DNA of 26,565 nucleotides. Source: Candidatus Coatesbacteria bacterium. Lineage in GTDB: Bacteria; Oederibacteriota; CAKKQC01. Each line of letters begins with the position of its first letter. Within the stretch, counting starts at the first letter, position 1. Below are positions 4,271 through 26,207 of the stretch, piece by piece. Location of the stretch: positions 1 to 26,565 of the forward strand of contig JAHFSL010000001.1 in NCBI GenBank assembly GCA_023265785.1. Reading direction: 5' to 3'. The notes under the pieces are model-generated. The model had not been told where the DNA came from. It searched no databases and was given only the letters and a program-made list of their open reading frames with translations. A program made the translations under genes and the position numbers.

Positions 4271-4272
4271 AG

Positions 4273-6060: not shown

Positions 6061-6061
6061 G

Positions 6062-7885: not shown

Positions 7886-7891
7886 GCCTCC

Positions 7892-7897
7892 ATAGTA
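7892..7897 (-). promoter_or_regulatory. Putative sigma70 -10 element (TACTAT) 6 nt upstream of ATG 7885; leaderless mRNA likely
   Basis: The minus strand reads TACTAT-ggaggc-ATG. The GGAGG is too close to the ATG to act as a normal SD. Confidence 0.5.
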
Positions 7898-7937
7898 TGG
7901 CAAAAGGCGCACCCCCGGAGGTTCCGCCGGTGGGGAA

Positions 7938-8783
7938 TCATTCCTGCGCGGGCGGGGCCGGGCGGATGGCCTCTGCGGGCCGGGCACCCGTATCCACGAG
8001 GAACCGGGCCACGGCACTCGTACCGCTCACCGGGGCGGGGGCGAAAAAGGTCGCCTCCCAGGTTCCCGTGGCCGCCGGCAGGGTGGCCGCCGCGGAAAAC
8101 CTTCCGGCCCGGACGGCGACCGGCACGGTCCACGGCTTCCCGCGGGGTCCCGTCACGGCAAGCCGGAGGGGACCCGCCGTCGCGCCAAGGATTCCGGAAA
8201 AGTGGATGGCCAGCCCGTCGGGGGTCAGGGACGCCCCGGTCCGGGCAAAGCGGAGGTCCTGCCGGGAGAACTCCTGCGCCATCCACACGGTGGGCAGGAG
8301 CACCCGGGAATCCGCGTCGGCCGCCGCCGCCCCCAGGGCGAGACCGATGCCGATGTGGGTCAACCGGGGATCGAGGCAATTCCGGCGGTGCGGCGGGCTT
8401 TCCAGGAGGCGGGTCTGGAGGGTTGCGAGGAGCTCCGCGGGTCCCGCCCCGGGCCGGGAGGACCCGTAGTGCCCCACATTCTCGCCCCAGACGGCATCCG
8501 CCACGCCCGCCAGGGCGAGCCGCGCCTCCGGGGTGCCGTGGGCAAAGGAGGGGGCGCCATGCCCGGTGAATCCCCGGTCCCGCATCCGGTGGGCCTGCTC
8601 GCGGGCCACGCGGGCGAGGACCGGATCGGGGAGGAGCGGTGCCACCCCGGCCGCGGCCCGGGCTTCGTTCACCAGTACGAGCGCCCTCGCCTCCAGCGCG
8701 GAGGAAGCGTCCTGACCGGCGGCGTGGCCCGGGCCGGCCGGGGTGAGGAGCACGGCCAGCAGGGCGCCGTGCCACCGATTCAT
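7938..8783 (-). CDS. Secreted CAP (SCP/Tpx-1/Ag5/PR-1) domain protein with C-terminal extension
   Basis: Signal peptide MNRWHGALLAVLL...GHA. LVLVNEARAAAGVAPL, ARVAREQAHRM, FTGH, WGENV, LLESPPHRRNCL, THIGIG are CAP signatures. Start is uncertain. Confidence 0.85.
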   Translation of the reverse strand: MNRWHGALLAVLLTPAGPGHAAGQDASSALEARALVLVNEARAAAGVAPLLPDPVLARVAREQAHRMRDRGFTGHGAPSFAHGTPEARLALAGVADAVWGENVGHYGSSRPGAGPAELLATLQTRLLESPPHRRNCLDPRLTHIGIGLALGAAAADADSRVLLPTVWMAQEFSRQDLRFARTGASLTPDGLAIHFSGILGATAGPLRLAVTGPRGKPWTVPVAVRAGRFSAAATLPAATGTWEATFFAPAPVSGTSAVARFLVDTGARPAEAIRPAPPAQE

Positions 8784-8785
8784 TG

Positions 8786-8791
8786 TATTCT
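8786..8791 (+). promoter_or_regulatory. Putative -10 element (TATTCT) 7 nt upstream of ATG 8799, overlapping an opposite-strand TACAAT (8782-8787)
   Basis: TATTCT-tgggccc-ATG; the only AT-rich patch between two divergent genes. Confidence 0.45.
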
Positions 8792-8798
8792 TGGGCCC

Positions 8799-9545
8799 AT
8801 GCAGGGTGGGCGGGGGCGGGGTCCGGGGCGGGCGGTCGTCATGGCGCTTTTCCTGTGGGGATGCGGCGGCGGACCGGAGGTGCGCGTGACCGCTGACCCG
8901 CTGGAGTGGGTTCCCGGGCGCATCGCCATCCTGCCTGCGGTCACCGCGGCCGGGGCCATTCCGCCCGCCACCGGCCTGCCGGTGGGCCTCGCTCCGTCCG
9001 ATCCCGCCGCGGCGGCCGCCGCCGTCCTGGCCGCCGTGCGCGGTGCGCTGGCGGGGTGCGCGACCCTCGTGGCCATCGAGGCGGCTCCCGCCTTCAGCTC
9101 CACGGCGGCGGGCGAGGCGGCCGTGCGGCTGGCGACCCAGTACCTGGACCAGCGTGACGTGGATCCCCGGGCGGCGCTGGGCGTGGCCGCGGCCCTTCCC
9201 GGGACCGATGCCCTGCTCCTGACGGCCGTCGTCCGGTACGGGCCGGAGGCCGATGTGGACGTGGCCCGGCAGGCGCAGGCGGTCAACACGAAGGTCGGGA
9301 CGACCGACCTGGGGATCAGTTCGGCCGCCACCCATGTCAGCGTCTGGTTCAACGCCCAGTTCCGCTGTGCGCTGGTCCGGTGCCGTGACGGCGTGGTGGT
9401 CTGGGATGTGGGGGAGCGCCAGCGGGTCAAGCGCTCGATCCTGCGCGACGTGACCCAGGAGCAGGTGCTTGCGATGGCCGCCGCCGAACTCTGCGGCGTC
9501 TTTCCGTGGGCGCAGGAGGGGGCCGGGGGCGCATCCGCCCCCTGA
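8799..9545 (+). CDS. Lipoprotein, possibly DUF799/GNA1162-like (CsgG/LpoB-like fold)
   Basis: Lipobox AVVMALFLWG-C; RIAILPAV, DALLLTAVVRYG, ALVRCRDGVVVW follow the pattern of this lipoprotein class. Alternative start 8841. Confidence 0.55.
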   Translation: MQGGRGRGPGRAVVMALFLWGCGGGPEVRVTADPLEWVPGRIAILPAVTAAGAIPPATGLPVGLAPSDPAAAAAAVLAAVRGALAGCATLVAIEAAPAFSSTAAGEAAVRLATQYLDQRDVDPRAALGVAAALPGTDALLLTAVVRYGPEADVDVARQAQAVNTKVGTTDLGISSAATHVSVWFNAQFRCALVRCRDGVVVWDVGERQRVKRSILRDVTQEQVLAMAAAELCGVFPWAQEGAGGASAP

Positions 9546-9550
9546 CGGGG

Positions 9551-10159
9551 TCAGTCCTTCGACGCGCCCGCCGGAATCTGCAGGGCCTTGAGCAGCTCCC
9601 GCATCTCGAAGGGCTTGGGCAGGAAGGCATTCGCGCCCGCCGCTTTCATCTCCCGGATATCCTCGGGGCCGGCCTTGCCGGAGATGGCCACGATGCGCAC
9701 CGACCGGCCGACCGGCGACTGGCGGATGCGGCGGACGAGCGCGGGGCCGGGAACATCCTCGAGCATGACATCCAGAACGATGACATCGGGCTTGAATTCC
9801 GCGAGCGCCAATCCGGCATCCAGCCCCGTGGAGGCCGTCTGGACCAGCAGCCGGTTGCCCTCCGACAGCGCATCCCTCATGACATCGAGCAGTTTGGCGT
9901 CGTCCTCGACCAGCAGGATGCGGGCCCGATCGCCCGTGGAGGAGGCGGAGGGCAGGAGGCCGTGTTCGGCCATGAACCGCCGGAGGCTGTCCGCCTCGAT
10001 CCGGCGCTTGCCGCCCGGCAGCCGGGCGCCCACGAGGAGGCCCTCGTCGAACCAGCGCTGGATCGAGAAGGTGGAGACCCCGCAGATCTTGGCGGCTTCC
10101 AGGGTGGACACATACTGGGCGATGCGTTCCTTGACCGGGGTGGGGGCGACCTTCCTCAT
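9551..10159 (-). CDS. Response regulator with N-terminal excisionase-type (HTH_17/MerR-like) DNA-binding domain and C-terminal receiver
   Basis: YVSTLEAAKICGVSTFSIQRWFDEGLLVGARLPGGKRRI HTH; RILLVEDD, VIVLDVML (phospho-Asp), VAISG, FLPKPF. Start ATG 10159. Confidence 0.88.
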   Translation of the reverse strand: MRKVAPTPVKERIAQYVSTLEAAKICGVSTFSIQRWFDEGLLVGARLPGGKRRIEADSLRRFMAEHGLLPSASSTGDRARILLVEDDAKLLDVMRDALSEGNRLLVQTASTGLDAGLALAEFKPDVIVLDVMLEDVPGPALVRRIRQSPVGRSVRIVAISGKAGPEDIREMKAAGANAFLPKPFEMRELLKALQIPAGASKD

Positions 10160-10167
10160 CGGGAAGG

Positions 10168-10176
10168 ATAATAACA
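10168..10176 (-). promoter_or_regulatory. Putative extended -10 promoter (TGnTATTAT) 8 nt upstream of ATG 10159
   Basis: The minus strand reads TGTTATTAT-ccttcccg-ATG, with no SD. Confidence 0.55.
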
Positions 10177-10264
10177 AGCGGCGTGGCCCGGGGGCAAGCC
10201 GCATCGCGGCTGGTGGATCGCCCTCCCGGTCAGGGCGGGGTTGGACCCAAAGGATTGGGGGAAA

Positions 10265-11092
10265 TCAGCGGCCGGCGCGGTGAAGGATGGCAACCAGGCG
10301 CTCAAGTTCTTCGGCCGAATAATACGCGATCACGATCCGCCCCCGCTTGCCGGAGCGGACAACGCGGACCTTGGTTCCCAGGGCCCGCGAGAGTTCGGCG
10401 TCTTCGGAGGCCGCGTTGCGCGCGCGGGGGGGGGGCGACGGCCGGGTTCCACGCCGGGCCAGGGCCTCCGTCTGGCGCACGGACAGCCCGAGGTTCATGG
10501 CCTGGCGGGCCAGGGCGAGCTGGCCCGCGGGCGCCTCCACCTGCAGGATGGCGCGGGCATGCCCCGCCGAGAGGCGACCGTCCGCCACCGCCTCCTGGAC
10601 ATCCCGCGGGAGCTTGAGCAGGCGGAGGGTATTGGCGATCGTCGTCCGGTCCTTGCCGATGCGCTTGGCGAGCTCCTCCTGTCCCGAGTCCCTGAGCAGG
10701 GCCTCGTAGCTGGCCGCCGCCTCCATCGGGTTGAGGTCCTCGCGTTGGATGTTCTCGATCAGCATGAGTTCCAGCGCCTCCCGGTCGGTGGCTTCGCGGA
10801 CCACGGCGGGAACCGTCCGCAGGCCGGCCAACCGCGCGGCCCGCCAGCGCCGCTCGCCGGCGATCAGCTCCCATCCCTCGCCGTGCCGCCGGACCAGGAT
10901 GGGCTGGGCCACGCCCTTGTCCCGGATGGTCGCCGCCAGTTCCTCCAGGGCCCGGGCCTCGAACCGTTTCCGCTTCTGCTGGCGGTTGGGGACGATGGCG
11001 CTGACGGGAAGTTCCTGGACCTGGATGCCCCGCGGCCCCCCCGAGGAGAGCAGGGAGGCCAGGCCGCGGCCGAGGGGCTGGCGCGGAGGCAT
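10265..11092 (-). CDS. parB: ParB/Spo0J chromosome partitioning protein
   Basis: LGRGLASLL N-terminal ParA-binding peptide, QPILVR, ELIAGERRWRAA CTP motif, LIENIQREDLNPMEAA, HTH RIGKDRTTIANTLRLL, LSAGHARAIL, LSVRQTE. Confidence 0.96.
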   Translation of the reverse strand: MPPRQPLGRGLASLLSSGGPRGIQVQELPVSAIVPNRQQKRKRFEARALEELAATIRDKGVAQPILVRRHGEGWELIAGERRWRAARLAGLRTVPAVVREATDREALELMLIENIQREDLNPMEAAASYEALLRDSGQEELAKRIGKDRTTIANTLRLLKLPRDVQEAVADGRLSAGHARAILQVEAPAGQLALARQAMNLGLSVRQTEALARRGTRPSPPPRARNAASEDAELSRALGTKVRVVRSGKRGRIVIAYYSAEELERLVAILHRAGR

Positions 11093-11910
11093 CAGGCGCT
11101 CCGCGCCCCGGCGGCCAACGGGGCGGCCGCGGGTTCCGGAGCGTGACGTTTCAGGAATTCCCGCGCAAAGGCCAGGTACGAGGCGGCGCCCGGCGAACTG
11201 GCGTCATACAGGATGACCGGCTTGCCGTGGGAGGGGGCCTCCGACAGGCGGACGTTCCGCGGAATCACCGTCCGGTATACCCGGTCACGGAAATGGCCAC
11301 GCACCTGACGGATGACCTCCTGAGCCAGACGGGTCCGCCCGTCGTACATCGTGAGGACGGCGCCATCCACCTCCAGCGCGGGATTGAGGTCGGCGCGAAC
11401 CAGGTCAATGGTCTCCAACAGCTGGCCGAGTCCTTCCAGCGCAAAGTACTCGCACTGAACCGGGACAAGCACGGCATCGGCGGCAGCCAGGGCATTGGCG
11501 GTCAGGACGCCGAGCGAGGGCGGGCAGTCCAGGAAGATCCAGTCATATCCGTGGCGCAGGGGTTCCAGCCCGGCCCGCAGGCGATAGGCCCGGTCGTCGG
11601 CGGCGAGGAGTTCCATCTCGATGCCGTTCAGGTTCGGGCTGGAGGGCACGACCTTGAGGCCCGCGAGGGCGGTGGGCCGGACGGCATCCACCAGCGGTGC
11701 CTCGCCCAGCAGGACCTCGTACAGACTGGTTGGAACACCCACGCCGGCGGCCCGGCCGCCGGACAGGCTGCTGGTCGCGTTGCCCTGCGGATCGCAATCG
11801 ACGAGGAGGACGGACCGCTCCAGGGCCGCGATGCAGGCGGCCAGGTTGACCGCGGTCGTCGTCTTGCCCACGCCGCCTTTCTGGTTGGCGATCGCGATGA
11901 CTCGGCTCAT
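11092..11910 (-). CDS. parA: ParA/Soj ATPase
   Basis: MSRVIAIANQKGGVGKTTTAVN deviant Walker A, VDCDPQGNAT, IFLDCPPSLG, PVQCEYFALEGL, LTMYDGRT, IPRNVRLSEAPSHGKP. TGATG overlap with parB. Confidence 0.96.
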   Translation of the reverse strand: MSRVIAIANQKGGVGKTTTAVNLAACIAALERSVLLVDCDPQGNATSSLSGGRAAGVGVPTSLYEVLLGEAPLVDAVRPTALAGLKVVPSSPNLNGIEMELLAADDRAYRLRAGLEPLRHGYDWIFLDCPPSLGVLTANALAAADAVLVPVQCEYFALEGLGQLLETIDLVRADLNPALEVDGAVLTMYDGRTRLAQEVIRQVRGHFRDRVYRTVIPRNVRLSEAPSHGKPVILYDASSPGAASYLAFAREFLKRHAPEPAAAPLAAGARSA

Positions 11911-12755
11911 GGCATGAACGTGCGGGGGTCCACCGGGACCCCGTACAGCCGGACCTCGTAGTGGCAGTGGGGACCGGTGGCGTTCCCGGTGGATCCCAGG
12001 TACCCGATCACCTCGCCACGCCGCACCCGCTGGCCGGGGATGGCGCGCAGGCGCGAGCAGTGGCCATAGCGGGTGGCATACCCGTACCCGTGCACGATTT
12101 CGACCATCTTCCCGTATCCTCCCGAGGTCCAGCCCGCCTGGGTGACGAGTCCGTCCGCGGCGGCCGTGATGGGCGACCCGAGCTTGTTGGCGATATCCAC
12201 GCCCTGGTGCAGGGCGCCGATTTCGCCCGTGTAGGGGGACACCCGTTCCCCGAACTCCGAGGTAATCCACCCGCGGACCGGCCAGCCCGCGGGCGTGGCG
12301 GCGGCCAGGGAGGACAGCGATTCCCAGTCGCGGAAGATTTCCCCGCCGGCCCGCTCGAGCCGGGCGACCCGTCCGGGGATCTCGGCGGGCAGGAAATCCA
12401 CCCGGGGTCCGCCGGTGCCGCCGCTCCGCTCGGCCAGCCGGCGGGTCCCGGTGAGGGCGCGCTGGAGGTCCTGTTCCAGGGGTCCCAGCCGCCGTGTCAG
12501 GGCCTCGGCGCGGGCCACGTCCCCGGCGTAGCGGTCCAGCCGGGCCGCCATGTGCGCATTCAGCAGGCTCATGGCCTCGTACTGGATGTGCCGGGTGACC
12601 AGCCAGCCGGCCGCCCCGAGGAGGGCCGCCGCCAGCCCGAGGACCCCGGCGACCGCCAGGACGGGCAAACGGAGACGGAACGCGCGCGCGCTGTCGGCGG
12701 GCAGAACCATCAGGGTCACGGGGCGGAGCAGCAAGGACCGGAGCGTCGTGCGCAT
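11907..12755 (-). CDS. Membrane-anchored M23 family metallopeptidase (N-terminal TM, coiled coil)
   Basis: TM segment LPVLAVAGVLGLAAALLGAAGWLV; PAGWPVRGWITSEFGER, HQGVDIA (HxxxD), TRYGH, STGNATGPHCHYEV (HxH). ATGA overlap with parA. Alternative start 12773. Confidence 0.9.
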   Translation of the reverse strand: MRTTLRSLLLRPVTLMVLPADSARAFRLRLPVLAVAGVLGLAAALLGAAGWLVTRHIQYEAMSLLNAHMAARLDRYAGDVARAEALTRRLGPLEQDLQRALTGTRRLAERSGGTGGPRVDFLPAEIPGRVARLERAGGEIFRDWESLSSLAAATPAGWPVRGWITSEFGERVSPYTGEIGALHQGVDIANKLGSPITAAADGLVTQAGWTSGGYGKMVEIVHGYGYATRYGHCSRLRAIPGQRVRRGEVIGYLGSTGNATGPHCHYEVRLYGVPVDPRTFMP

Positions 12756-12771
12756 CGCTCTAGGGTGCGTC

Positions 12772-12780
12772 ATTCTAGCA
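12772..12780 (-). promoter_or_regulatory. Putative extended -10 promoter (TGnTAGAAT) for M23-parA-parB
   Basis: The minus strand reads TGCTAGAAT, 16 nt upstream of ATG 12755. Confidence 0.55.
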
Positions 12781-12841
12781 TGGCGGCCGCGGCCGTCCCG
12801 CCGCGGCCGGGCCGGGCCGGACGGTCGGGTCCCGTCCCCGA

Positions 12842-12847
12842 TACAAT
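12842..12847 (+). promoter_or_regulatory. Putative -10 element (TACAAT) 7 nt upstream of mqnD ATG; leaderless mRNA likely
   Basis: TACAAT-cggctgg-ATG(12855), with no SD. Confidence 0.6.
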
Positions 12848-12854
12848 CGGCTGG

Positions 12855-13703
12855 ATGACCGCCGACCGCGTCCTGCGCGTGGGCCACTCTCCCGACCCGG
12901 ATGATGCGTTCATGTTCTATGCGCTGATCCGGGGAAAGGTCACCCTTCCCGGGTTCGGGTTCCGGGATGTCGTCGAGCCCATCGAGGAGCTGAACCGCCG
13001 CGCTCTGGGCGGCGAGCTGGAGGTGACGGCCCTCTCTGCCCATGCCTTCGCCCGGTGCGCGGACCGGTACCGGATCCTCTCCGCGGGGGCCTCGGTGGGA
13101 CGCGGGTACGGGCCACTGCTGGTCGCCCGGGCGGCACGGTCGCTGGCCTCGCTGGCCGGCCGTCCGGTGGCCCTGCCCGGGGAGCTCACCACCGCGGCAC
13201 TGGTGGCGCGGCTGGTCCTGCCAGATGCCGCGTTCGTCCAGGTCCGGTTTGACGAGATTCCCGCGGCGGTCCTCGCGGGCCGGGTGGAGGCCGGGGTGAT
13301 CATCCATGAGGGCCAGCTCACCTGGCAATCGCTGGGACTGGCCCGCCTGCTGGACTTCGGCGAGTGGTGGGCCGGTCAGACCGGGGGCCTGCCGCTTCCG
13401 CTCGGATTGGACGCCGTGCGCGCCGACCTGGGCGAGGAGGCGGCCCGGGCCATGGACCGGGCCCTCAAGGCGTCCATCGCCTACGCCTTCGACCATCCCG
13501 CGGACGCCATGGCCTACGCGCGGGGGTTCGGGCGGGGCATTGACGAGGCGACCAACGATGCCTTTGTCCGGATGTATGTGAACCAGGACACCCGCGCCCT
13601 GCCGCCCGATTGTCTGCAGGCCCTCGACGAGCTGTACCGCCGGGCCGCGGCCGCGGGCCTGCTGGCGGCGGTGCCGGCCGTGCGCGTGGTGGACGGGGGC
13701 TGA
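12855..13703 (+). CDS. mqnD: 1,4-dihydroxy-6-naphthoate synthase (futalosine menaquinone pathway; MqnA/MqnD/SBP family)
   Basis: RVGHSPDPDDAFMFYAL, IEELNRRA, SAGASVGRGYGP, PGELTTA, GVIIHEGQLT, LPLPLG, FVRMYVN are MqnD signatures. Confidence 0.92.
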   Translation: MTADRVLRVGHSPDPDDAFMFYALIRGKVTLPGFGFRDVVEPIEELNRRALGGELEVTALSAHAFARCADRYRILSAGASVGRGYGPLLVARAARSLASLAGRPVALPGELTTAALVARLVLPDAAFVQVRFDEIPAAVLAGRVEAGVIIHEGQLTWQSLGLARLLDFGEWWAGQTGGLPLPLGLDAVRADLGEEAARAMDRALKASIAYAFDHPADAMAYARGFGRGIDEATNDAFVRMYVNQDTRALPPDCLQALDELYRRAAAAGLLAAVPAVRVVDGG

Positions 13704-18700: not shown

Positions 18701-19900
18701 GTGCGTGGGGAGCAGGCGGAATTCATCCGGCAGGCCCGGATCCTGGTGGTGGACGACGACGAGGCGTGCCGCAACCTGCTGGCCGCCTTCCTGGCGCCGA
18801 TCGGGTGCGCGGTCACCCAGGCCGCGGACGGCCGGGAGGCGCTCGAGCGGCTGGAGGACGGGTCCTGGGACGTGGTCCTGCTGGACCTCATCATGCCGGG
18901 CCTCTCCGGGTTCGAGGTTCTGGCCCGCATCCGCGAGACCCGGCCGCAGGAGGTCCTGCCGGTCATCCTGATCACCGGCCAGGATGACGCGGACACCCGG
19001 ATGGAGGCGCTGGCCCTCCGCGCGAACGACTTCCTGGCGAAGCCGATCCACCACGCCGAGGTGATGGCGCGCATGGGGACCATCCTGGCCATGCACTGGG
19101 CGCGCGAGGAACTGGAGGAGCGGCTGACGGAACTGCGGAACGCGCAGGACCTCAAGGACCTGCTGATCAACTGCGTCATCCACGACCTCAAGGGGCCGCT
19201 CACGAGCGCCAAGGGCAATATCGAACTCGCGCTGGACCGCCTGCCGGACGGCCCGGCCGCCCGGCAGTTGCGGCGGGCGGCGGACGCCATTGACCGGACC
19301 GTGGGGATGGCCGCGGACGCGGTGGCCGTCGCGCGCATGGAGGAGGAGAAGCTCCGGCCCGCGGCAACGCCGTTCGATGCGGCCGCGCTCGTCCGCCAGC
19401 GCGTCGACGTCCTGCAGGGCATGGCGGCCACCCGTGAGGTCGCGTTGGTCGGGCCGGAGCCCGGCGCGGAGGCTCCGGCGGCGCGCGGCGATGAGGGGCT
19501 GATGGCGCGGGTCCTCGACAACCTGATCGTCAACGCCCTCAAGCACACCCCGGCAGGGGGGCGGGTGACGGTCGGCGCGGAGCGCGGACCGGAGGGCACC
19601 GTCACCTTCGCCGTGGTGGACACCGGGGAGGGCATCCCCGCGGCCTGGCTCCACCGGATCTTTGATAAATTTTCCCAGGTGGAAATGCGGCGGAAGGGGC
19701 TGGGGACCGACACCGGACTGGGGCTCACCTTCTGCAAGCTGGCCGTGGAGGCCCAGGGCGGCCGGATCGAGGTGGACAGTGAGCCGGGGACCGGCTCCAC
19801 CTTCCGGGTGAGCCTGCCGGGAGCCGTCGCCAGCGAACCGGCGGCGCTGGAATCCGTCGTCAGGTGGCAAACCGCCGCCGGGGTGGCCGCGGTCGCCTGA
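18701..19900 (+). CDS. Cytoplasmic hybrid histidine kinase (REC-HisKA-HATPase_c)
   Basis: RILVVDDD, VLLDLIMP, FLAKP; H-box VIHDLKGPL; NLIVNALKHT, DTGEGIP, IFDKFSQV, TGLGLTFCK, GSTFRVSLP. Confidence 0.92.
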   Translation: MRGEQAEFIRQARILVVDDDEACRNLLAAFLAPIGCAVTQAADGREALERLEDGSWDVVLLDLIMPGLSGFEVLARIRETRPQEVLPVILITGQDDADTRMEALALRANDFLAKPIHHAEVMARMGTILAMHWAREELEERLTELRNAQDLKDLLINCVIHDLKGPLTSAKGNIELALDRLPDGPAARQLRRAADAIDRTVGMAADAVAVARMEEEKLRPAATPFDAAALVRQRVDVLQGMAATREVALVGPEPGAEAPAARGDEGLMARVLDNLIVNALKHTPAGGRVTVGAERGPEGTVTFAVVDTGEGIPAAWLHRIFDKFSQVEMRRKGLGTDTGLGLTFCKLAVEAQGGRIEVDSEPGTGSTFRVSLPGAVASEPAALESVVRWQTAAGVAAVA

Positions 19901-19916
19901 CCCGTCCGGGCCGCGG

Positions 19917-19925
19917 TGTTACAAT
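19917..19925 (+). promoter_or_regulatory. Putative extended -10 promoter (TGnTACAAT) for the PATAN/Mgl operon
   Basis: TGTTACAAT in the only AT-rich stretch after the kinase stop; an ATG follows at 19935. Confidence 0.6.
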
Positions 19926-19967
19926 AATCGCTCGATGAATTCCTGCGGGCGCAAGCGGTAAGTCCGT

Positions 19968-20867
19968 ATGGGCCTGATCGCCGGGTCCGCCTTCGCGTCC
20001 GCCGTGGACACCCTGAAGTTTCCCCCGACCTCGTTCCCCAAGGGCAAGCCGGTCCAGAAGAACCTGGACACGCACTACATCCACCTGGCGGGCCTGTTCC
20101 GCAGCCTGGCGTCCGAGGGATTCGGCGGCATCGTCCTGATGGTCTTCGAGGACGGCTCGGAGGCCCTGATCGTGTTCCGCGAGGGCACCATCATCACCGC
20201 GTACCACGCCGGGCCCGAGGGTCGGAAGGTCGGCCTGCCCGCCCTGACGCAGGCCATCGTCCAGGCCCGCCAGATCCGGGCCTATGTGGATGTCTTCAAG
20301 CTGGAGCACGAGATCCTGGTGGCCATCCTGCCCCTCCTGCACGGCGTGCAGGTGCCGACGCAGGCGAAGGGGCAGTCGCTCGAGGAGCGGCTCGCCGAAT
20401 TCAAGAAGGCGGAGTTCGTCGGGGCCATCGTGGTGGGGGAGCAGGTTCCCGAATCCATCGGCTTGATCTACGCCGGGATCCCCATGGGCTGGTTTGACGC
20501 GCAGGGGACGGAATCCGAGACCGGATCCCAGCCTCCACCCCACCGGTCCCTCACGGTCCGCGCCTTTGCCCTGGAGGGGGCGGATACCTTCGCGGCCATC
20601 AACCTGGCGCTCGACAAGCAGATCGTCGCCGGCAGGATCCGGGAGGTGCTCGAGAAGGACCTGCACGAATTCGGGCTCGTCCTGTATGCCCGCGGCCTGG
20701 CGGCGCGCGAGGTGGTGGAGGAATCCAGGGCCAGCAAGGCCCAGTTCACCGGGCTGATCGAGGACATTGAGCGGGCGGTCGGCGTCCTGCGCGGACCGGC
20801 GCCGGCCCGGCGGCTGGCCGCCGACCTGCACGGGGTCGTGGACGCGATGATTGACGTGGGGTTCTAG
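19968..20867 (+). CDS. Protein with two tandem DUF4388/PATAN-like domains and a helical C-terminal domain
   Basis: Repeat 1 LAGLFRSLASEGFGGIVLMVFEDGSEALIVFREGTIITAY; repeat 2 LEERLAEFKKAEFVGAIVVGEQVPESIGLIYAGIPMG. Both fit the L..L..L....F.G.+.......G.+.F..G.+..A pattern. Recognised by pattern only. Confidence 0.55.
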   Translation: MGLIAGSAFASAVDTLKFPPTSFPKGKPVQKNLDTHYIHLAGLFRSLASEGFGGIVLMVFEDGSEALIVFREGTIITAYHAGPEGRKVGLPALTQAIVQARQIRAYVDVFKLEHEILVAILPLLHGVQVPTQAKGQSLEERLAEFKKAEFVGAIVVGEQVPESIGLIYAGIPMGWFDAQGTESETGSQPPPHRSLTVRAFALEGADTFAAINLALDKQIVAGRIREVLEKDLHEFGLVLYARGLAAREVVEESRASKAQFTGLIEDIERAVGVLRGPAPARRLAADLHGVVDAMIDVGF

Positions 20868-20953
20868 CCATGAAGAAACCTGATCGGGAATGCGACGCCT
20901 CAACGGCCGCCGGGCACCCGGCACAGCCGGGCGCCCGGCGCGAAGCCTAGACG

Positions 20954-21331
20954 ATGCAATTCACGAACCGGGAATATTTTCTCTTCGTGGTCGTGACGAA
21001 CTACCTCACGATTATCAGCGGGGTGCTGTTCCTGCTGGCCTTCATCCTGCTCGGCCTGCTCGCGCTCCGGGTCACGCGCGTGTTCGGGGTCAAGACCCAC
21101 TGGCCCCTGCTGTTCCTGGGCCCCGTCGGGGCCATCATGTACTCGGTGTACACCATCGTGCACGGCGGAGGCCCGTCGGGATCCAAGGAGGCCTACGCGC
21201 TCGAGCGCTGGGTGGCGTACGGCGCGTTCCTGGCGGGCGGCCTGTTGTGCTGGTGGGGGGTGTACCGGTTCCACCGGTCGCTGGATGGGCTGGTGCGCGA
21301 GGGCCGGGACGTCGGAAAGAAATATGGTTGA
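20954..21331 (+). CDS. Small integral membrane protein (3 TM), unknown function
   Basis: Three hydrophobic segments; FG-x4-W loop motif; overlaps the next gene by 8 nt. Confidence 0.75.
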   Translation: MQFTNREYFLFVVVTNYLTIISGVLFLLAFILLGLLALRVTRVFGVKTHWPLLFLGPVGAIMYSVYTIVHGGGPSGSKEAYALERWVAYGAFLAGGLLCWWGVYRFHRSLDGLVREGRDVGKKYG

Positions 21332-21686
21332 GGCGCTGTCCGAGATCCCATCCGACTACCTGGTCTACGAGGCCGGCGGGCTGGTCTTCTTCTTTGCCCT
21401 GCTCGGGTTCACCTATACGTCGCGTCGGTTGATGGCCCTCTTCGGCCGGGGCGCGTTCTGGCTCCTGCCGCTGGTGGGCGCCCTGTGCATGGTGGCCGTC
21501 GTGGGCCTGCACTTCTATGCGAACGTCTGGTATCCCATGGAGCATGCGGGCGACCCCGGCCTGACCGCCGCCATCTACCGCTTCCGGTTCGTGGCCCTGA
21601 TCGCCCTGCTGGCGTCCAGCGTCACCACGGTGCTGGGCGCGGTCCTGCTCTGGATGATGTTCACCGGGTTCCGGGTCCGGGGTTAG
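21324..21686 (+). CDS. Small integral membrane protein (3 TM), apparent paralogue of the preceding gene
   Basis: ATG 21324 after GGAAAGA; three hydrophobic segments; same FG-x4-W loop. Confidence 0.75.
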   Translation: MVEALSEIPSDYLVYEAGGLVFFFALLGFTYTSRRLMALFGRGAFWLLPLVGALCMVAVVGLHFYANVWYPMEHAGDPGLTAAIYRFRFVALIALLASSVTTVLGAVLLWMMFTGFRVRG

Positions 21687-21688
21687 CC

Positions 21689-22264
21689 GTGGCCGTCCAT
21701 CACATTCCCGGCCGCGAGATCGTCTACAAGGTGGCCTATCACGGGCCCGGAATGTGCGGGAAAACGACCAATCTCCGGTTCATCTATAACACCCTGCCGG
21801 GCCGGCAGGTTGGGAACTTCCTGGTTCTCGACACGGCCGTCGAGCGCACGCTGTACTACGACTTTCTGCCGGTGGTCATCCCGGTTGAGGACGGCTACAA
21901 GGTCCGCTTTCATCTGTATACGGTGCCCGGCCAGCCCTACTACGACGCCAGCCGCAAGCTGGTCCTGAAGGGCGTGGATGGCGTCGTGTTTGTCGCGGAT
22001 TCCCACCCCGAGCGCATGAACGAGAACCTGGACTCGCTGACGATGCTGAAGAAGGACCTGCACGAGGTGGGACTGGACTACACGACCCTTCCGCTCATCA
22101 TGCAGTACAACAAGCGGGACCTGCCCACCCCCCTGGCCATGAACCTGCTTGACGAAAAGTTGAACGAGACGAAGGCCCCGGTGTTCGGCGCGGTGGCACG
22201 GGACGGGATGGGCGTGTTCGAGACCCTGGCGGCCATGGCCGAGATGATCACCCGGAAGGCCTGA
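21689..22264 (+). CDS. mglA: MglA-family small Ras-like GTPase
   Basis: GTG start 2 nt after the upstream stop. REIVYKVAYHGPGMCGKTTNL, ERTLYYDFLP (intrinsic Arg finger), RFHLYTVPGQ, YDASRKLVLKGVDGVVFVADS, QYNKRDLP, GVFETL; nearly colinear with Myxococcus MglA. Confidence 0.95.
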   Translation: MAVHHIPGREIVYKVAYHGPGMCGKTTNLRFIYNTLPGRQVGNFLVLDTAVERTLYYDFLPVVIPVEDGYKVRFHLYTVPGQPYYDASRKLVLKGVDGVVFVADSHPERMNENLDSLTMLKKDLHEVGLDYTTLPLIMQYNKRDLPTPLAMNLLDEKLNETKAPVFGAVARDGMGVFETLAAMAEMITRKA

Positions 22265-22268
22265 CCCC

Positions 22269-22643
22269 GTGTCCCTCAAGGCGCTTGAACTCAATGCGGG
22301 CGATGTGGAACTGATGGAGGCTGAATTGCGGACGCTTTGTGCCCGCGCGGGCGCCGAGTCGGTCGTCCTCCTCGACCTGTCGGGGGTGATCCTGGCGGGC
22401 CACCGCCTGCCGGAAAAGGTGGATACGCTCCTGTTTGCCGCCCTCCTGACCTCCAACTTCGCGGCGACCGAGGAACTGTCCCGGCGGCTGGGTGTCACCT
22501 CCTTCCGGGTCATGTATCACGAGGGCAAGCGCCAGAACATCTATTTCGACAAGGTGGCCGAGGAGACGATTCTGGTCGTGCTCTTCCGGGACTCCAACGC
22601 GCTGGGCCGGGTCCGGCTCTTCACCGAGAAGTCGGTGACCTAG
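22269..22643 (+). CDS. mglB: MglB/roadblock-LC7 protein, apparently interrupted by an in-frame TAG (frame continues to 22769)
   Basis: VVLLDLSGVILAG, LFAALLTSNFAATEELSRRLG, FRVMYHEGKRQNIYF, ILVVLF...LGRVRL. TAG 22641-22643 falls in the last roadblock helix, and 41 more in-frame codons follow. Confidence 0.8.
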   Translation: MSLKALELNAGDVELMEAELRTLCARAGAESVVLLDLSGVILAGHRLPEKVDTLLFAALLTSNFAATEELSRRLGVTSFRVMYHEGKRQNIYFDKVAEETILVVLFRDSNALGRVRLFTEKSVT

Positions 22644-22774
22644 CTGGGCAAGCTGGTTGCCGCGGTGACGAAACCCGAGGGGGAGCGGCTGGACCTGGCC
22701 GCGGGCCGCCAGGCGGCCGCGTGGCTGGCCCAGGTCGCCAATACGATTCAGCCCGGAAAGTTGGCCTAGGAATT

Positions 22775-24103
22775 ATGGAAGCAACGATTGATATTCGGAC
22801 CGCTGACGGCAACGTCAATATCCTGCTGGAGGATGCCCAGGTCGGGCAGTTGCGCGAGGTCCTGGTGGACCTCTCGCTGGCCACCAGCGCGGTCTTTGCC
22901 ATGCTGATTGACGCGGCCGGGCGCGTCGTGGCCACGGGCGGCCAGACGAGCGAATTCGAGCTGGAGGCTATTGCGGCCCTGGCCGCCGGCGACCTGGCAA
23001 CCACCCGCCAGCTGGCCTCCATGCTCAACGAGCCCGAATTCTCGCTCCTCTTCCAGCACGAGAAGCAGAAGAACCTCTTCATGACCGCCATTGAGAGCGA
23101 CGCGATCCTGATCGTGGTCTTCGACGTGGACACGACGTTCGGGGCCCTGCGCCTGCGGATTCGCCGGTCCATTTCCCAGCTCTCGTCCATCCTGCACCAG
23201 GCCAAACGCAACACGCTGGTCGCGTTGTCCTCCTCCTCGGCGATCTCGGGCGCCGAGGATCTCCATGCGGGGGATGACCTCTCGGCGGTGGCCGAGCCGG
23301 AGGCTCCGCCGCCGATGGAAACCCGGGCGGCACCGGTTGCGCCCGCGCCCCGGGGGCCGGTGGCGGAGGCGGTCCCCTCCGAGTCACCGGGACCCGACGC
23401 CGGCGTGGTGGCGCCGCCGCCCGCTCCGGCGATGGCGTCCGGCCTTCCGGAGAACCTCGTCGCCGAGATGCGCAAGGCCCTGGGCTGGTTCGAGACCTTC
23501 CAGGGGTGGAAACTGGTCTTTGCCGACGAGATTGAATTCCTCCAGCGGGGCATCGAGCGCGGCCGGGCGGAAGAGACGGAGACCCTCCGCTCCATTTTCC
23601 TGCGGACGCGGGCCCGGCTCACGGAGCAAAAGCGCCTGCTGGAGGCGCGGTTCCGGCTGATCCAGAGCCTCTACCAGCAGTTCGTCGTCTCACTCCAGAC
23701 GACGATGGCGGGCGCGTGGCACGACGAGATCGTGGACCGCGCGATGAAGGCCGCGTTCTCCGGCGTGGGCCAGGACCACAATCTGGTGGGCTCGGGTGTG
23801 TCCAAGCGGGAGGGGGCCTGGAGCTTCGACTTCCAGCTCATCGGCAAACAGCTGGTGACGGTCTGCCACAGCCGCGGCTGGACCTACCACCAGGGGATGC
23901 TGGAGGTCCTGCGGCAGTTGAACGCGGCACTGTCGGCGCTGTCCGCATTTATCATCGAGGACGCCAAACTGCGCGAGGAACTCACCCGGCAGTGGGCCCG
24001 GCTGTACCGCCACTATGCCGATGGACTCAAGACCCTCGAGCTGGAGGCGGAGGTCCTTGACCTCTTCCGCCCCCTTGTCCGGACCGGCTCGCTTCCTAAA
24101 TAG
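22775..24103 (+). CDS. MglB/roadblock domain fused via a Pro/Ala-rich linker to an unknown helical domain
   Basis: ATG 22775 after TAGGA. AMLIDAAGRVVATGGQT, AIAALAAGDLATTRQLASMLNEPEFSLLFQ, NLFMT, ILIVVFD..TTFGALRLRIRR are canonical MglB features. The C-terminal ~220 aa are not recognised. Confidence 0.82.
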   Translation: MEATIDIRTADGNVNILLEDAQVGQLREVLVDLSLATSAVFAMLIDAAGRVVATGGQTSEFELEAIAALAAGDLATTRQLASMLNEPEFSLLFQHEKQKNLFMTAIESDAILIVVFDVDTTFGALRLRIRRSISQLSSILHQAKRNTLVALSSSSAISGAEDLHAGDDLSAVAEPEAPPPMETRAAPVAPAPRGPVAEAVPSESPGPDAGVVAPPPAPAMASGLPENLVAEMRKALGWFETFQGWKLVFADEIEFLQRGIERGRAEETETLRSIFLRTRARLTEQKRLLEARFRLIQSLYQQFVVSLQTTMAGAWHDEIVDRAMKAAFSGVGQDHNLVGSGVSKREGAWSFDFQLIGKQLVTVCHSRGWTYHQGMLEVLRQLNAALSALSAFIIEDAKLREELTRQWARLYRHYADGLKTLELEAEVLDLFRPLVRTGSLPK

Positions 24104-24115
24104 AAAGAGCCCCCG

Positions 24116-25288
24116 TCACCAGCGGATCGGTTCCTCGGTGGCCTGAACCCCGGCCTCGGCGCGGGCCTTCTTGAGCAATTCGTTGGCGGCCTTCATGAGG
24201 GTCCGGGCGTCCTCGAATTTCGCGGCGGTGATCGCGGCCTGCGCCTCCGCCAGCCGCCTGCGGCCCTTGTCCACCGTGGCCCCGGCCTGCCGGTTGGGGG
24301 GCGCCCCGGGCGGCTGGATCGTATCGAACCCGGAGCCGATAACATCGGCGAAGGAGCGCAATTTCTCCTTGCGGGTTTCCTCGACCTGCCGGCCCAGAAC
24401 CACCAGCTTGTCGCGCACCTGGCGTGACAGGTCCTCGGCGTTGTCAAAATTGCCCGCCTTCAACTCGCCCTCGGCGCCCGCGAGGTCCGTGGTCACATCT
24501 TTCACCTCCTCGGGCGGCAGGACATCGGCGCCGATCTTGACGAGGTCCTTCAGCTCCTTGCGCGCCGCCTCGAGGACCCGGCCCGCGCCGTGCTGGCGCA
24601 CGGTGTCCGTGGCGGCCCAGGGCGCGACATTGTAGGCGGAGGGGAAGGTCGCCGCCGCGCCGCCCGCAGGGGGCAGGACCAGGTCGTACCGGCCCGGCGC
24701 CAGGTCGGAGGCGACGACCAGGGTGACCGAGGGCAGGACGCCGTCCGCCCCGATCCGGACCGGGTCGTGGACCGTCGCGGCCCGGCCCAGGTGGATGGAG
24801 TCCGCGGCGATGAACGCGCCCTTGGGGAACCCCGTTCCCGCCAGCGTGAACACCATGCCGACAAATCCGCCGAGCGGCACGGCCTTGTTGGTCCGCCAGG
24901 TCGCCCCGGCCCGGCCGTCGCCGATGGGCGGGTCCAGCGTGACCACGGGCCGGACCAGGTAGGCCGCCCGGAAGACCGCCGGCGCGCCCGCCATGATCCG
25001 GGCATCGTGCCTGCCGGCGGGCAGGGCGCCGGCCAGCAGGACCAGGGTGGGCGGCAGGGCGCCGGTGGCGTCGGTCAGCAGGTCGCCGGGACCCGCCTCC
25101 ACGCCGCCGATTTCGATGAAGACGCTGGTGGAGGGGGCCAGGCCCGACCCGGCGATGCGCAGGACCTCGCCGGCACGGCCCGACCCCGTCGGCGGGGTGA
25201 TGCTGAATTGGGGCGCGGCCTGCGCCGCTCCCGCGATGGCGGCACAGGCCAGGAGGGTGGCGGGCTTAAGGTTCACGGGAAAATACAT
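24116..25288 (-). CDS. Secreted protein with two Ig-like repeats and a C-terminal helical bundle
   Basis: Signal peptide ...KPATLLACAAIAGAAQA. Internal duplication PPTGSGRAG...AGSG...GALP...GRHD...FRAAYLVRP versus PPIGDGRAG...AGTG...GVLP...GRYD...FPSAYNVAP. Charged helical tail. Alternative start GTG 25276. Confidence 0.65.
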   Translation of the reverse strand: MYFPVNLKPATLLACAAIAGAAQAAPQFSITPPTGSGRAGEVLRIAGSGLAPSTSVFIEIGGVEAGPGDLLTDATGALPPTLVLLAGALPAGRHDARIMAGAPAVFRAAYLVRPVVTLDPPIGDGRAGATWRTNKAVPLGGFVGMVFTLAGTGFPKGAFIAADSIHLGRAATVHDPVRIGADGVLPSVTLVVASDLAPGRYDLVLPPAGGAAATFPSAYNVAPWAATDTVRQHGAGRVLEAARKELKDLVKIGADVLPPEEVKDVTTDLAGAEGELKAGNFDNAEDLSRQVRDKLVVLGRQVEETRKEKLRSFADVIGSGFDTIQPPGAPPNRQAGATVDKGRRRLAEAQAAITAAKFEDARTLMKAANELLKKARAEAGVQATEEPIRW

Positions 25289-25346
25289 TGTATCGCCCGC
25301 GGTCCGGTGGTGCCCGGATGGGACGCCCCTGTAGCATAGGACCGGC

Positions 25347-26207
25347 ATGGCGATGCGAATTGTGCGGTCCATCACCTCGATGCGTGCGCTGGCGGAACGC
25401 TGGCGGCGCACCCGAGCACGCGTGGGGCTGGTGCCGACCATGGGCGCCCTGCACGCCGGTCATCTCGCGCTGGTGGCCGCCGCCCGGCGGGCCAGCGACC
25501 GGGTGGTCGTGAGCGTGTTCGTGAATCCCTCCCAGTTCGGGCCGCGCGAGGACTTCGCCCGCTACCCGCGTACGCCCGCCGCCGATGCCCGGCTCCTCCG
25601 CCGGGCCGGGGTGGACGCCCTGTTCCTGCCGGCGGTGGCCGCCATGGATCCGCCGGGCGGGGCGACCGTGGTGGAGGTGGGCGGTTCGTTGACCCGGGGC
25701 CTGTGTGCCCCGTTCCGGCCCGGCCATTTCCGGGGGGTCGCCACCGTGGTGGCCAGGCTATTCGCCATCATCCGGCCCCATGCGGCCTGGTTCGGCCGCA
25801 AGGATGCCCAGCAGGCGGCGGTCCTGGGCCGGATGGCCCGGGACCTGCATTTCGGGATCGCGGTGCACACCGTGCCGACGGTGCGGGAACCGGACGGGCT
25901 CGCGCGCTCTTCCCGCAACCGCGCCCTCCTTCCGGCCCAGCGTGCGGCCGCGCCCGTTCTTCACGAGGCACTGGCGCTCGCCGCGGCCGCCGTGCGCGGG
26001 GGCGCGCGCACCCGGGGCGCCGTCCTGGGGCCGGCCCGGCGCCGCCTCGCCCGGGTCCCGGGCCTGCGCGTACAATATCTGGACCTCGTGGACGCCGCGA
26101 CGCTCGCTCCCGCCTCCCGGCCCGCCGGCCGGCTCCTGCTGGCCGCCGCCATCCACCTCGGCCGGACCCGGTTGATTGACAACCGGGCCGTCCGGGCCCC
26201 GCGCTGA
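25347..26207 (+). CDS. panC: Pantoate--beta-alanine ligase
   Basis: VPTMGALHAGHLAL, SVFVNPSQFG, RPGHFRGVATVV, FGRKDAQQ, REPDGLARSSRN, RLIDN. Alternative start 25353. Confidence 0.96.
   Translation: MAMRIVRSITSMRALAERWRRTRARVGLVPTMGALHAGHLALVAAARRASDRVVVSVFVNPSQFGPREDFARYPRTPAADARLLRRAGVDALFLPAVAAMDPPGGATVVEVGGSLTRGLCAPFRPGHFRGVATVVARLFAIIRPHAAWFGRKDAQQAAVLGRMARDLHFGIAVHTVPTVREPDGLARSSRNRALLPAQRAAAPVLHEALALAAAAVRGGARTRGAVLGPARRRLARVPGLRVQYLDLVDAATLAPASRPAGRLLLAAAIHLGRTRLIDNRAVRAPR

What the first reader, a model, noticed from the sequence alone, without database searches (positions are those of the whole stretch)
19968..24103. Candidate undescribed polarity/signalling module: tandem PATAN-like protein, 3-TM pair, MglA and two MglBs
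Seen: six contiguous same-strand genes behind one promoter. MglA keeps the P-loop, intrinsic Arg (ERTL), catalytic Gln (PGQ) and NKRD. Known: MglA/MglB set the leading pole for type IV pili in Myxococcus (usual order mglB-mglA, with RomR/RomX as GEF), and PATAN domains of cyanobacterial PatA-type regulators contact the pilus motor. Here the order is mglA-mglB-mglB fusion, no RomR-like gene is present, and two small membrane proteins and a receiver-less double PATAN-like protein are added. Inference: a membrane-anchored GTPase switch in which the TM pair provides localisation or input and the PATAN-like protein is the output to the PilB motors.
Basis: partly seen in the sequence, partly recalled or inferred. 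Interest (0 to 1): 0.75.

Follow-up and report, generated by a model that had tools for sequence, protein, structure and literature searches.

The report
Membrane-tethered PATAN module switched by MglA
Six genes of an uncultured groundwater bacterium form a conserved unit: a Ras-like polarity GTPase (MglA), two different MglB regulators, and a PATAN-type adaptor predicted to dock on a pair of small membrane proteins. The unit appears undescribed, and it offers a candidate answer to how PATAN proteins reach the membrane.

Summary
Window 19968-24103 carries six tightly packed same-strand genes behind a conserved extended -10 box. They encode a PATAN/DUF2226-like protein, two paralogous 3-TM proteins, a Group-1-type MglA, a short MglB and a long MglB fused to a helical domain with no match found.

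All six components recur together. The same order (type A) is in 3 of 4 other same-family genomes and 18 metagenome loci. A paralogous, permuted order (type B) is in 4 genomes and 8 metagenome loci.

- A complex prediction places the PATAN protein's C-terminal helix bundle on the cytoplasmic loops and tails of the TM pair (ipSAE 0.62, best control 0.01).
- In a distant low-GC lineage, one member of which is labelled Goldiibacteriota, the same PATAN-TM-TM triad is followed by a stand-alone receiver next to a histidine kinase, with no MglA or MglB within the ±5 kb fetched.

I read the triad as a membrane-anchored output unit driven by interchangeable switches. The proposed link to PilB is untested. 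It rests on published PATAN biology and on synteny within one family.

PATAN-MglAB neighbourhoods are already in print. This scan has also noted related MglA-Roadblock-PATAN-membrane modules on other DNA. I therefore class this as a new variant of a known kind. mglB1 in this assembly carries an in-frame TAG.

The parts
19897..19925 (+). sigma-70-like promoter (CTGACC, 17 nt, TACAAT, with TG extended -10)
   Evidence: It is the only promoter-like site in 19700-24300. The TGnTAnAAT box is conserved upstream of the first gene in G001, G002 and G004, where the start codon follows about 10 nt later.
19968..20867 (+). PATAN/DUF2226-like protein, 299 aa: two beta-rich subdomains (about res 24-125 and 138-205) and a C-terminal four-helix bundle (213-292)
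   Evidence: pLDDT 87; TM 0.62 to a PatA_N cluster. The bundle is the predicted contact with the TM pair.
20954..21331 (+). TM1, a 125-aa protein with three membrane helices (N-out, C-in)
   Evidence: The family was found only inside the module. Loop 39-44 and tail 113-124 touch the PATAN bundle in the model.
21324..21686 (+). TM2, a 120-aa three-helix membrane protein and distant paralogue of TM1; it overlaps TM1 by 8 nt
   Evidence: (hhalign prob 92%, E 5e-7).
21689..22264 (+). mglA, Group-1-type small GTPase, 191 aa, GTG start
   Evidence: E 1.5e-59 to M. xanthus MglA, catalytic motifs in register. It falls in the type A clade of the tree.
22269..22643 (+). mglB1, short Roadblock/LC7 MglB; 124 aa as it stands, 165-166 aa in orthologues
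22641..22643 (+). in-frame TAG where three relatives have GAG (Glu)
22644..22769 (+). remnant of the mglB1 C-terminal tail (41 codons and a second TAG at 22767-22769), still conserved with relatives
22775..24103 (+). long mglB, 442 aa: conserved DGNVN motif, Roadblock domain (about res 20-147), Pro/Ala-rich linker (148-221) and a helical C-domain (222-442, i.e. 23438-24100)
   Evidence: every homologue found is Roadblock-length; most carry a Robl_LC7 hit; pLDDT 92; no match to any known fold.

Best explanation
This is one six-component small-GTPase signalling unit that works at the inner membrane.

Shown by tool results:
- The six genes are inherited and duplicated as a set.
- MglA keeps every catalytic motif of Group-1 MglA.
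- Both MglBs are genuine Roadblock proteins. Their short/long split predates the duplication into types A and B.
- TM1 and TM2 are paralogues with three membrane helices each.
- The PATAN-like protein belongs to the PATAN/DUF2226 superfamily.

Supported by a model, not shown: TM1 and TM2 form a heterodimer. Their cytoplasmic loop 1 and C-terminal tails hold the C-terminal four-helix bundle of the PATAN-like protein. This leaves the two N-terminal PATAN subdomains free at the membrane surface.

Inferred:
- MglA cycles between GDP and GTP. The two MglBs, probably as a short/long heterodimer, stimulate hydrolysis, and the helical C-domain of the long one places or regulates that activity.
- MglA-GTP acts on the tethered PATAN protein. 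It would play the part that the phosphorylated receiver plays in PatA-type PATAN-REC regulators, and in the variant where a stand-alone receiver replaces MglA and MglB.
- The PATAN subdomains then bind a target at the membrane. The likeliest target is a type IV pilus extension ATPase or its platform, which would set where or when pili are made.
For: Gene set and motifs.

Same gene order in G001, G002 and G004. Permuted paralogous order (mglA, long mglB, PATAN, TM1, TM2, short mglB) in G001, G002, G004 and G007.

A TM1 profile scan of metagenomes gave 27 loci. Of these, 18 had the type A order, 8 the type B order and 1 the type C order; none lay outside such a context as far as the contigs reach.

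The full-length PATAN-like family is tiny: 9 hits at E<1e-30 among 1.84 billion representatives. All three members looked up sit in the module.

MglA types A and B form separate clades with support 99/99 and 99/97.

Complex model: ipSAE 0.62 against a best control of 0.01. That mark was reached by 58 of 80 solved complexes and 2 of 110 mismatched pairs. The runs agree in at least 96% of contacts and the partner's pLDDT is at least 80. The counts hold only roughly, because my own alignments and three chains were used. The interface joins PATAN 221-279 to TM1 39-44 and 113-124 and to TM2 38-41 and 113-115.

The TM1 contacts and the TM2 loop lie in K/R-rich segments predicted to be cytoplasmic; the three TM2 tail contacts sit at its C-terminal end. 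The interface includes the invariant PATAN residues G236, L239, L274 and G276.

Type C: HK, PATAN (DUF4388 E 8e-12), TM1-like, TM2-like, stand-alone REC, seen in four distinct contexts. TM homology to types A/B is strong: hhalign 99.5% with E 2.7e-23, and 98.3% with E 2e-14.

[quoted passage not shown] PATAN-MglA/MglB neighbourhoods have been reported.

The genome has pilus genes: PilT-like, PilC and PilM on contig C130, and several PilB-like ATPases.
Against: No contact of MglA or either MglB with the PATAN-TM complex was tested; the single complex job went to PATAN and the TM pair.

The complex score is the model's own confidence, obtained with shallow alignments of 9 rows.

P0001 itself is below Pfam's cut-off for DUF4388 (19.4 bits against 25). 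Its profile match to the type C PATAN proteins is weak (E 0.0027, prob 11%).

The pilus link is circumstantial. The two PilB-like genes lie 12 kb away on the other strand. Their synteny is seen only among close relatives. No PilB lies within about 20 kb of the G007 type B locus or within the ±5 kb fetched at the four type C loci.

The direction of signalling (switch to PATAN) is argued only by analogy.

mglB1 is truncated by a TAG in this assembly, so this copy may be impaired.
Confidence: 0.55

Rival explanations
1. The flow runs the other way. The TM pair with the PATAN-like protein is the input: a membrane platform that recruits or activates MglA as a GEF or anchor. It would take the place of RomR/RomX and resemble the membrane-bound Ragulator scaffold of Rag GTPases. 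The effector would be encoded elsewhere.
For: None of the six proteins carries a receiver domain, so no RomR-like gene is in the operon. The PATAN-TM complex is predicted to sit at the membrane. Roadblock proteins are the building blocks of Ragulator (established knowledge). The genome has four further MglA-MglB sets that could share effectors.
Against: In type C a histidine kinase and a receiver are already the input, and the triad is what remains downstream. Published work makes PATAN an output domain. The periplasmic loops are about 16 residues long, which leaves little room for sensing.
Confidence: 0.2
2. The architecture is as in the best explanation, but the target is not the type IV pilus. 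It would be another polar or membrane process, such as chromosome segregation, cell division or gliding.
For: In G001, G002 and G004 the operon lies divergent to parA-parB, and in G002 and G004 a receiver-HTH regulator gene follows. No pilus genes were seen beside the type B (G007) or type C loci examined. In Anabaena, PatA acts in heterocyst patterning and cell division (cited).
Against: The only biochemically defined PATAN partners are PilB1 and PilC. MglA's best-known outputs are motility machines. parAB adjacency is seen only among close relatives.
Confidence: 0.15
3. It is an ordinary mglA-mglB polarity pair whose other neighbours are incidental.
For: MglA and MglB alone would suffice for a known switch.
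Against: All six genes recur together in two different orders and in 26 metagenome loci. The TM1 family and the full-length PATAN-like family were found nowhere outside the module.
Confidence: 0.05

Closest known systems
MglA/MglB polarity switch of Myxococcus xanthus and Thermus thermophilus (Group 1 MglA of Wuichet and Sogaard-Andersen 2014, PMC4316618)
   Same: The GTPase keeps the intrinsic Arg, TxPGQ and NKxD and sits next to a Roadblock GAP. The Roadblock domains match solved MglB chains.
   Different: The gene order is mglA-mglB-mglB rather than mglB-mglA. There are two non-equivalent MglBs, one fused to a 220-aa helical domain with no known fold match found. No receiver-domain (RomR-like) gene is in the operon. 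A PATAN protein and two membrane proteins are obligatory neighbours.
PatA-type regulators of cyanobacteria (PATAN-REC fusions such as PixE, PixG, LsiR; Han et al. 2021, bioRxiv 10.1101/2021.06.11.447907)
   Same: A PATAN-superfamily output part is coupled to a molecular switch and acts at the inner membrane. That paper reports that an unidentified partner mediates PATAN's membrane localisation.
   Different: Here there is no fused receiver. The switch is a separate protein: MglA in types A and B, a stand-alone REC in type C. A dedicated TM pair is predicted to hold the PATAN protein through an extra C-terminal helix bundle. P0001 is below Pfam's cut-off for the domain.
PATAN genes near mglA/mglB reported by comparative genomics (Makarova et al. 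2006; Wuichet and Sogaard-Andersen 2014)
   Same: [quoted passage not shown]
   Different: In the passages read, those reports describe occasional neighbourhoods of variable composition. They mention no TM pair, no long MglB with this C-domain, and no fixed six-gene unit.
Actinobacterial conservon (CvnA-D)
   Same: A membrane-associated complex of a small MglA-family GTPase with a Roadblock protein.
   Different: The conservon has a histidine-kinase-like membrane sensor, a DUF742 protein and a Group 2 GTPase with a deviant G4 motif. None of these is present here.
Related modules noted earlier by this scan on other DNA (e1-1373016 in Actinomycetota, e1-5126905, e1-764695 and e1-1390352 in Zixibacteria, e1-4650027 in Planctomycetota)
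   Same: MglA appears with Roadblock proteins, a PATAN protein and small membrane proteins, sometimes beside pilus motors (AI notes, not checked here).
   Different: I did not compare sequences with those loci. The TM1/TM2 family and the full-length PATAN-like family here were found only in this lineage and, in diverged form, in type C.

Membership tests
MglA, Group 1 (Ras-like GTPase) | P-loop GxxxxGK[ST] | tested here: met
   GPGMCGKT aligns with GPGLCGKT of M. xanthus MglA.
MglA, Group 1 (Ras-like GTPase) | Intrinsic arginine finger in switch I, and Thr in place of Asp before PGQ | tested here: met
   ERTL aligns with DRTL, and LYTVPGQ is identical.
MglA, Group 1 (Ras-like GTPase) | G4 motif [NT]KxD | tested here: met
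   NKRD is identical in the alignment.
MglA, Group 1 (Ras-like GTPase) | GTP hydrolysis stimulated by MglB | not testable with these tools
   Needs a biochemical assay.
MglB / Roadblock-LC7 (PF03259) | Pfam score above the gathering cut-off of 23 bits | tested here: met
   P0005 scores 48.1 bits and P0006 31.6 bits. Both match solved MglB chains at E 1e-12 and 6e-17.
MglB / Roadblock-LC7 (PF03259) | Equivalog of Thermus MglB (NCBIfam NF052242, cut-off 200 bits) | tested here: not met
   Both score about 58.6-58.8 bits. They are MglB-family proteins, not equivalogs.
PATAN / DUF4388 (PF14332) | Pfam score above the gathering cut-off of 25 bits | tested here: not met
   P0001 scores 19.4 bits. 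Four of 12 family members match at E<=0.01, best 1.3e-5. P0043 of the same family reaches 26 bits.
PATAN / DUF4388 (PF14332) | Fold like that of PatA_N proteins | tested here: inconclusive
   The model (pLDDT 87) gives TM 0.62 over residues 2-234 to a cluster that is 95% PatA_N, and 0.52 to a DUF2226/PatA_N cluster. No matching solved structure turned up in the PDB searches.
PatA-type response regulator | Receiver domain fused C-terminal to PATAN | tested here: not met
   P0001 has no Response_reg hit; its C-terminus is a four-helix bundle.
PatA-type response regulator | PATAN binds the PilB N-terminal domain or the PilC N-terminal domain | not tested
Actinobacterial conservon (CvnA-D) | CvnA-type membrane kinase, DUF742 protein, Group 2 GTPase with deviant G4 | tested here: not met
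   None of the six proteins has an HATPase or DUF742 hit, and G4 is the canonical NKRD.
M. xanthus polarity module with RomR/RomX | RomR-type receiver protein encoded with or acting on the switch | tested here: inconclusive
   No receiver domain occurs in the six genes. The rest of the genome was not searched for RomR or RomX.

The most novel reading that the evidence does not exclude
The PATAN-TM1-TM2 triad is a previously unrecognised membrane-anchored output device. Evolution has plugged it into two unrelated molecular switches: a Ras-like GTPase with its two MglB regulators in one lineage, and a phospho-receiver with its kinase in another. On this reading a bacterial small GTPase and a two-component receiver are interchangeable drivers of one effector. 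The TM pair would then be an example of the unknown partner that holds PATAN proteins at the membrane.
Probability: 0.35. Interest if true: 0.75.

Novelty: new variant of a known kind. Interest (0 to 1): 0.6.

Why it matters
MglA/MglB is the main model for how bacteria set a front and a back. PATAN is the output domain of the cyanobacterial phototaxis regulators. Two gaps remain in print: what links PATAN proteins to MglA, and what holds PATAN at the membrane once PilB and PilC are removed (Han et al. 2021).

This module gives concrete, testable candidates for both. A dedicated pair of small membrane proteins is predicted to clamp the PATAN protein. A natural experiment also exists in which MglA and its two MglBs are swapped for a receiver and a kinase.

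The module further supplies a conserved short/long MglB pair, and a 220-aa helical domain for which no known fold match was found, always found on a Roadblock-bearing protein. These could show how GAP activity is positioned without RomR.

The organisms are uncultured and the proteins are small. The work would therefore be heterologous expression, pull-downs and structures.

Tried and rejected
**Fold searches.** For the PATAN-like model, Foldseek against the PDB gave nothing at E<=0.001. VIA-align wide gave only generic four-helix-bundle matches with Z<8. The long MglB C-domain also had no match: Foldseek E>=0.28, VIA Z<=7.6 with high rmsd, and Atlas feature scores of 0.80, which is noise level.

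**Sequence searches.**
- phmmer of P0001 against PDB sequences found nothing.
- NCBIfam had no family for P0001, TM1 or TM2.
- PADLOC gave no hit for any of the six proteins, so the defence-system reading was dropped.
- Rfam found no RNA family in 19700-24300.

**Internal repeat.** hhalign of P0001's two subdomains gave E 0.016 in a sensible register. That is not significant, so 'tandem PATAN' stays unproven. It has only indirect support from a relative with two DUF4388 stretches.

**Distant PATAN relatives.** P0047, P0048 and P0051 sit on short contigs that showed no MglA, MglB or TM neighbours.

**Literature.** Searches for DUF2226, DUF4388, MglA with PATAN, and Coatesbacteria found no description of this gene set.

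**Upstream receiver-kinase hybrid.** I rejected the gene at 18701-19900 as part of the module. It is not adjacent in relatives, where parA lies upstream instead.


Full report
**What is there**

The window is about 70% G+C, so I separated real genes from spurious ORFs by third-position GC. Six + strand genes fill 19968-24103 exactly:
- a 299-aa protein, P0001;
- two small membrane proteins, TM1 (125 aa) and TM2 (120 aa, overlapping TM1 by 8 nt);
- mglA (191 aa, GTG start 2 nt after TM2);
- a short mglB (124 aa, starting 4 nt after mglA);
- a long mglB (442 aa), 131 nt further on.

One sigma-70-like site with an extended -10 box lies at 19897-19925. The box is conserved upstream of the first gene in three relatives, whose start codons follow within about 10 nt. 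The next gene downstream is convergent.

The surrounding window holds two PilB-like ATPases, a receiver-HTH regulator, parB, parA, a menaquinone gene, a sigma-54 cassette, and panC/panD.

**Identities**

MglA matches M. xanthus MglA at E 1.5e-59, with the P-loop, ERTL/DRTL, YTVPGQ and NKRD in register. It is therefore a Group-1-type MglA in the scheme of PMC4316618.

Both MglBs pass Pfam Robl_LC7 and match solved MglB chains. Neither reaches the NCBIfam equivalog cut-off.

The long MglB has three parts after a conserved DGNVN motif: a Roadblock domain, a Pro/Ala-rich linker and a 220-aa C-domain. That C-domain folds confidently (pLDDT 92, all-helical with one hairpin). It has no convincing structural or feature match. 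All 28 homologues found are of full Roadblock-fusion length, and most carry a Robl_LC7 hit.

P0001 scores below Pfam's cut-offs for DUF4388 and DUF2226. Other evidence places it in that superfamily:
- A 12-sequence family profile reaches 452 proteins, several of which pass Pfam DUF4388 or DUF2226.
- Four of its 12 family members hit each of those Pfam families.
- Its model (pLDDT 87) superposes on PatA_N and DUF2226/PatA_N clusters at TM 0.62 and 0.52.

The model shows two beta-rich subdomains and a C-terminal four-helix bundle. Whether the two subdomains are a true tandem repeat remains unproven.

TM1 and TM2 each have three hydrophobic helices, K/R-rich first loops and basic C-termini, and short acidic or neutral outer loops. 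Their profiles match each other (hhalign 92%, E 5e-7).

**Conservation**

The genome is a fragmented MAG: 674 contigs, 83% complete, with six mglA paralogues.

The same six genes in the same order (type A) occur in three of the four other genomes of its family. A paralogous set of all six components occurs in a rotated order (type B): mglA, long mglB, PATAN-like, TM1, TM2, short mglB. It is present in those same three genomes and in a complete genome of another family. The window's own genome has the start of one on a short contig.

- In the phylum as held, 5 of 99 species genomes carry the PATAN-like family at E<=1e-10.
- A pattern scan of 185,579 species genomes found the same four other genomes and no more.
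- Among 1.84 billion representatives, only 9 matched the family profile at E<1e-30, seven of them full length.
- A TM1 profile scan of metagenomes returned 27 loci. Of these, 18 are type A and 8 type B, each showing the module as far as its contig reaches.

MglA types A and B form separate, well supported clades. The short/long MglB split is older than the A/B split. So the six genes behave as one inherited unit.

**The twenty-seventh locus**

This low-GC contig carries a bona fide PATAN protein (DUF4388, E 8e-12), TM1-like and TM2-like genes, and then a stand-alone receiver. A histidine kinase lies beside them.

The same arrangement recurs in three further distinct contexts, and one homologue of this TM1-like family is labelled Candidatus Goldiibacteriota. 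A kinase lies upstream in each, with a second receiver in two of them. No MglA or Roadblock gene lies within the ±5 kb fetched.

TM homology to types A/B is strong: 99.5% with E 2.7e-23, and 98.3% with E 2e-14. The PATAN proteins align collinearly but weakly.

The conserved core is therefore PATAN-TM1-TM2. The partner switch is either MglA with two MglBs, or a receiver with a kinase.

**Physical link**

- The result supports binding: ipSAE 0.62 against a best control of 0.01.
- That mark was reached by 58 of 80 solved complexes and 2 of 110 mismatched pairs.
- The runs agree in at least 96% of contacts, and the partner's pLDDT is at least 80.
- The counts hold only roughly here, because my own alignments and three chains were used.

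The interface is the PATAN protein's helix bundle (221-279). It meets TM1 loop 39-44 and tail 113-124, and TM2 loop 38-41 and tail 113-115. The TM1 contacts and the TM2 loop lie in segments predicted to be cytoplasmic, and the three TM2 tail contacts sit at its C-terminal end. The interface includes the bundle's invariant residues G236, L239, L274 and G276. This is a model's confidence, not a measurement.

**How it most likely works**

Published work shows that PATAN is the output domain of PatA-type PATAN-REC regulators. It binds PilB1 and PilC, and it reaches the membrane through an unidentified partner.

Taken with the type C swap, the most economical reading has three parts. The TM pair anchors the PATAN protein. 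The switch (MglA-GTP here, a phosphorylated receiver in type C) controls it. The PATAN subdomains then act on a membrane machine. The two MglBs would set MglA's off-rate, probably as a heterodimer, with the long one's C-domain positioning it.

These last steps are inference. No contact of MglA or MglB with the triad was tested.

**The pilus link is the weakest step**

The genome has pilus genes. In G002 the operon lies divergent to parA, parB, a receiver-HTH gene and then two pilB genes; in G004 and G001 the short contigs show only part of that row. In this window a 7.7-kb insertion separates them. These are close relatives, and no PilB lies near the type B locus of G007 or within the ±5 kb fetched at the type C loci.

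**Comparison with what is known**

[quoted passage not shown] The searched literature holds no description of this six-gene set, of the TM pair, or of the long MglB C-domain.

Earlier notes of this scan describe related MglA-Roadblock-PATAN-membrane modules in other phyla. I did not check those notes. They indicate that the theme is recurrent and that this is one variant of it.

**Side finding**

mglB1 carries TAG at 22641-22643, where the closest metagenome relative and two genomes have GAG. The 41 codons after it are still conserved and end 5 nt before the next gene. This is a very recent nonsense change or an assembly error. Reads could not be consulted.

Noticed in passing
window 22641-22769: mglB1 has an in-frame TAG where three relatives have GAG. 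The following 41 codons of the C-terminal tail are still conserved and end at a second TAG 5 nt before the next gene. This points to a recent nonsense mutation, an assembly error or readthrough.
   Followed up: partly
window 19926-19967: Relatives start the first gene about 10 nt after the -10 box, which looks leaderless. The window has an ATG at the matching place (19935), but it runs into TAA after 8 codons. The conserved protein starts 33 nt later, at 19968, so there has been a small rearrangement of the 5' end.
   Followed up: partly
G000 contigs C150, C55, C428, C663, C62 (L002-L006, L043): The MAG has five more mglA paralogues. One, with a long mglB, is a truncated type B module. Four form a separate clade with their own mglB genes. 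The C663 and C62 copies are nearly identical, which could reflect strain duplicates or the 5% contamination.
   Followed up: partly
window 4273-12270 and L018/L039 (G002), L019, L020: In relatives the operon lies back to back with parA and parB; G002 and G004 add a receiver-HTH gene, and G002 goes on to two pilB-like genes. In the window a block of about 7.7 kb (menaquinone gene and sigma-54 cassette) has been inserted between parA and the operon.
   Followed up: partly
window 11095-12270 (- strand): The ParA-like ATPase is 392 aa, with an N-terminal extension of about 120 aa before the AAA_31/CbiA domain. The listed + strand ORF 11961-13700 overlaps it, so that gene's true start is probably later.
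   Followed up: no
L070 4119-6095; L071, L073, L075 (about 4170-6180): A low-GC lineage, one member labelled Candidatus Goldiibacteriota, carries PATAN, two TM genes and a stand-alone receiver next to a histidine kinase, in effect a split, membrane-anchored PatA. In two contexts the row lies just upstream of rpsO and pnp.
   Followed up: partly
window 24116-25441 (- strand): A convergent 441-aa protein with a weak DUF4398 hit is conserved downstream of the operon in G002 (63% identity). Its function is unknown.
   Followed up: no
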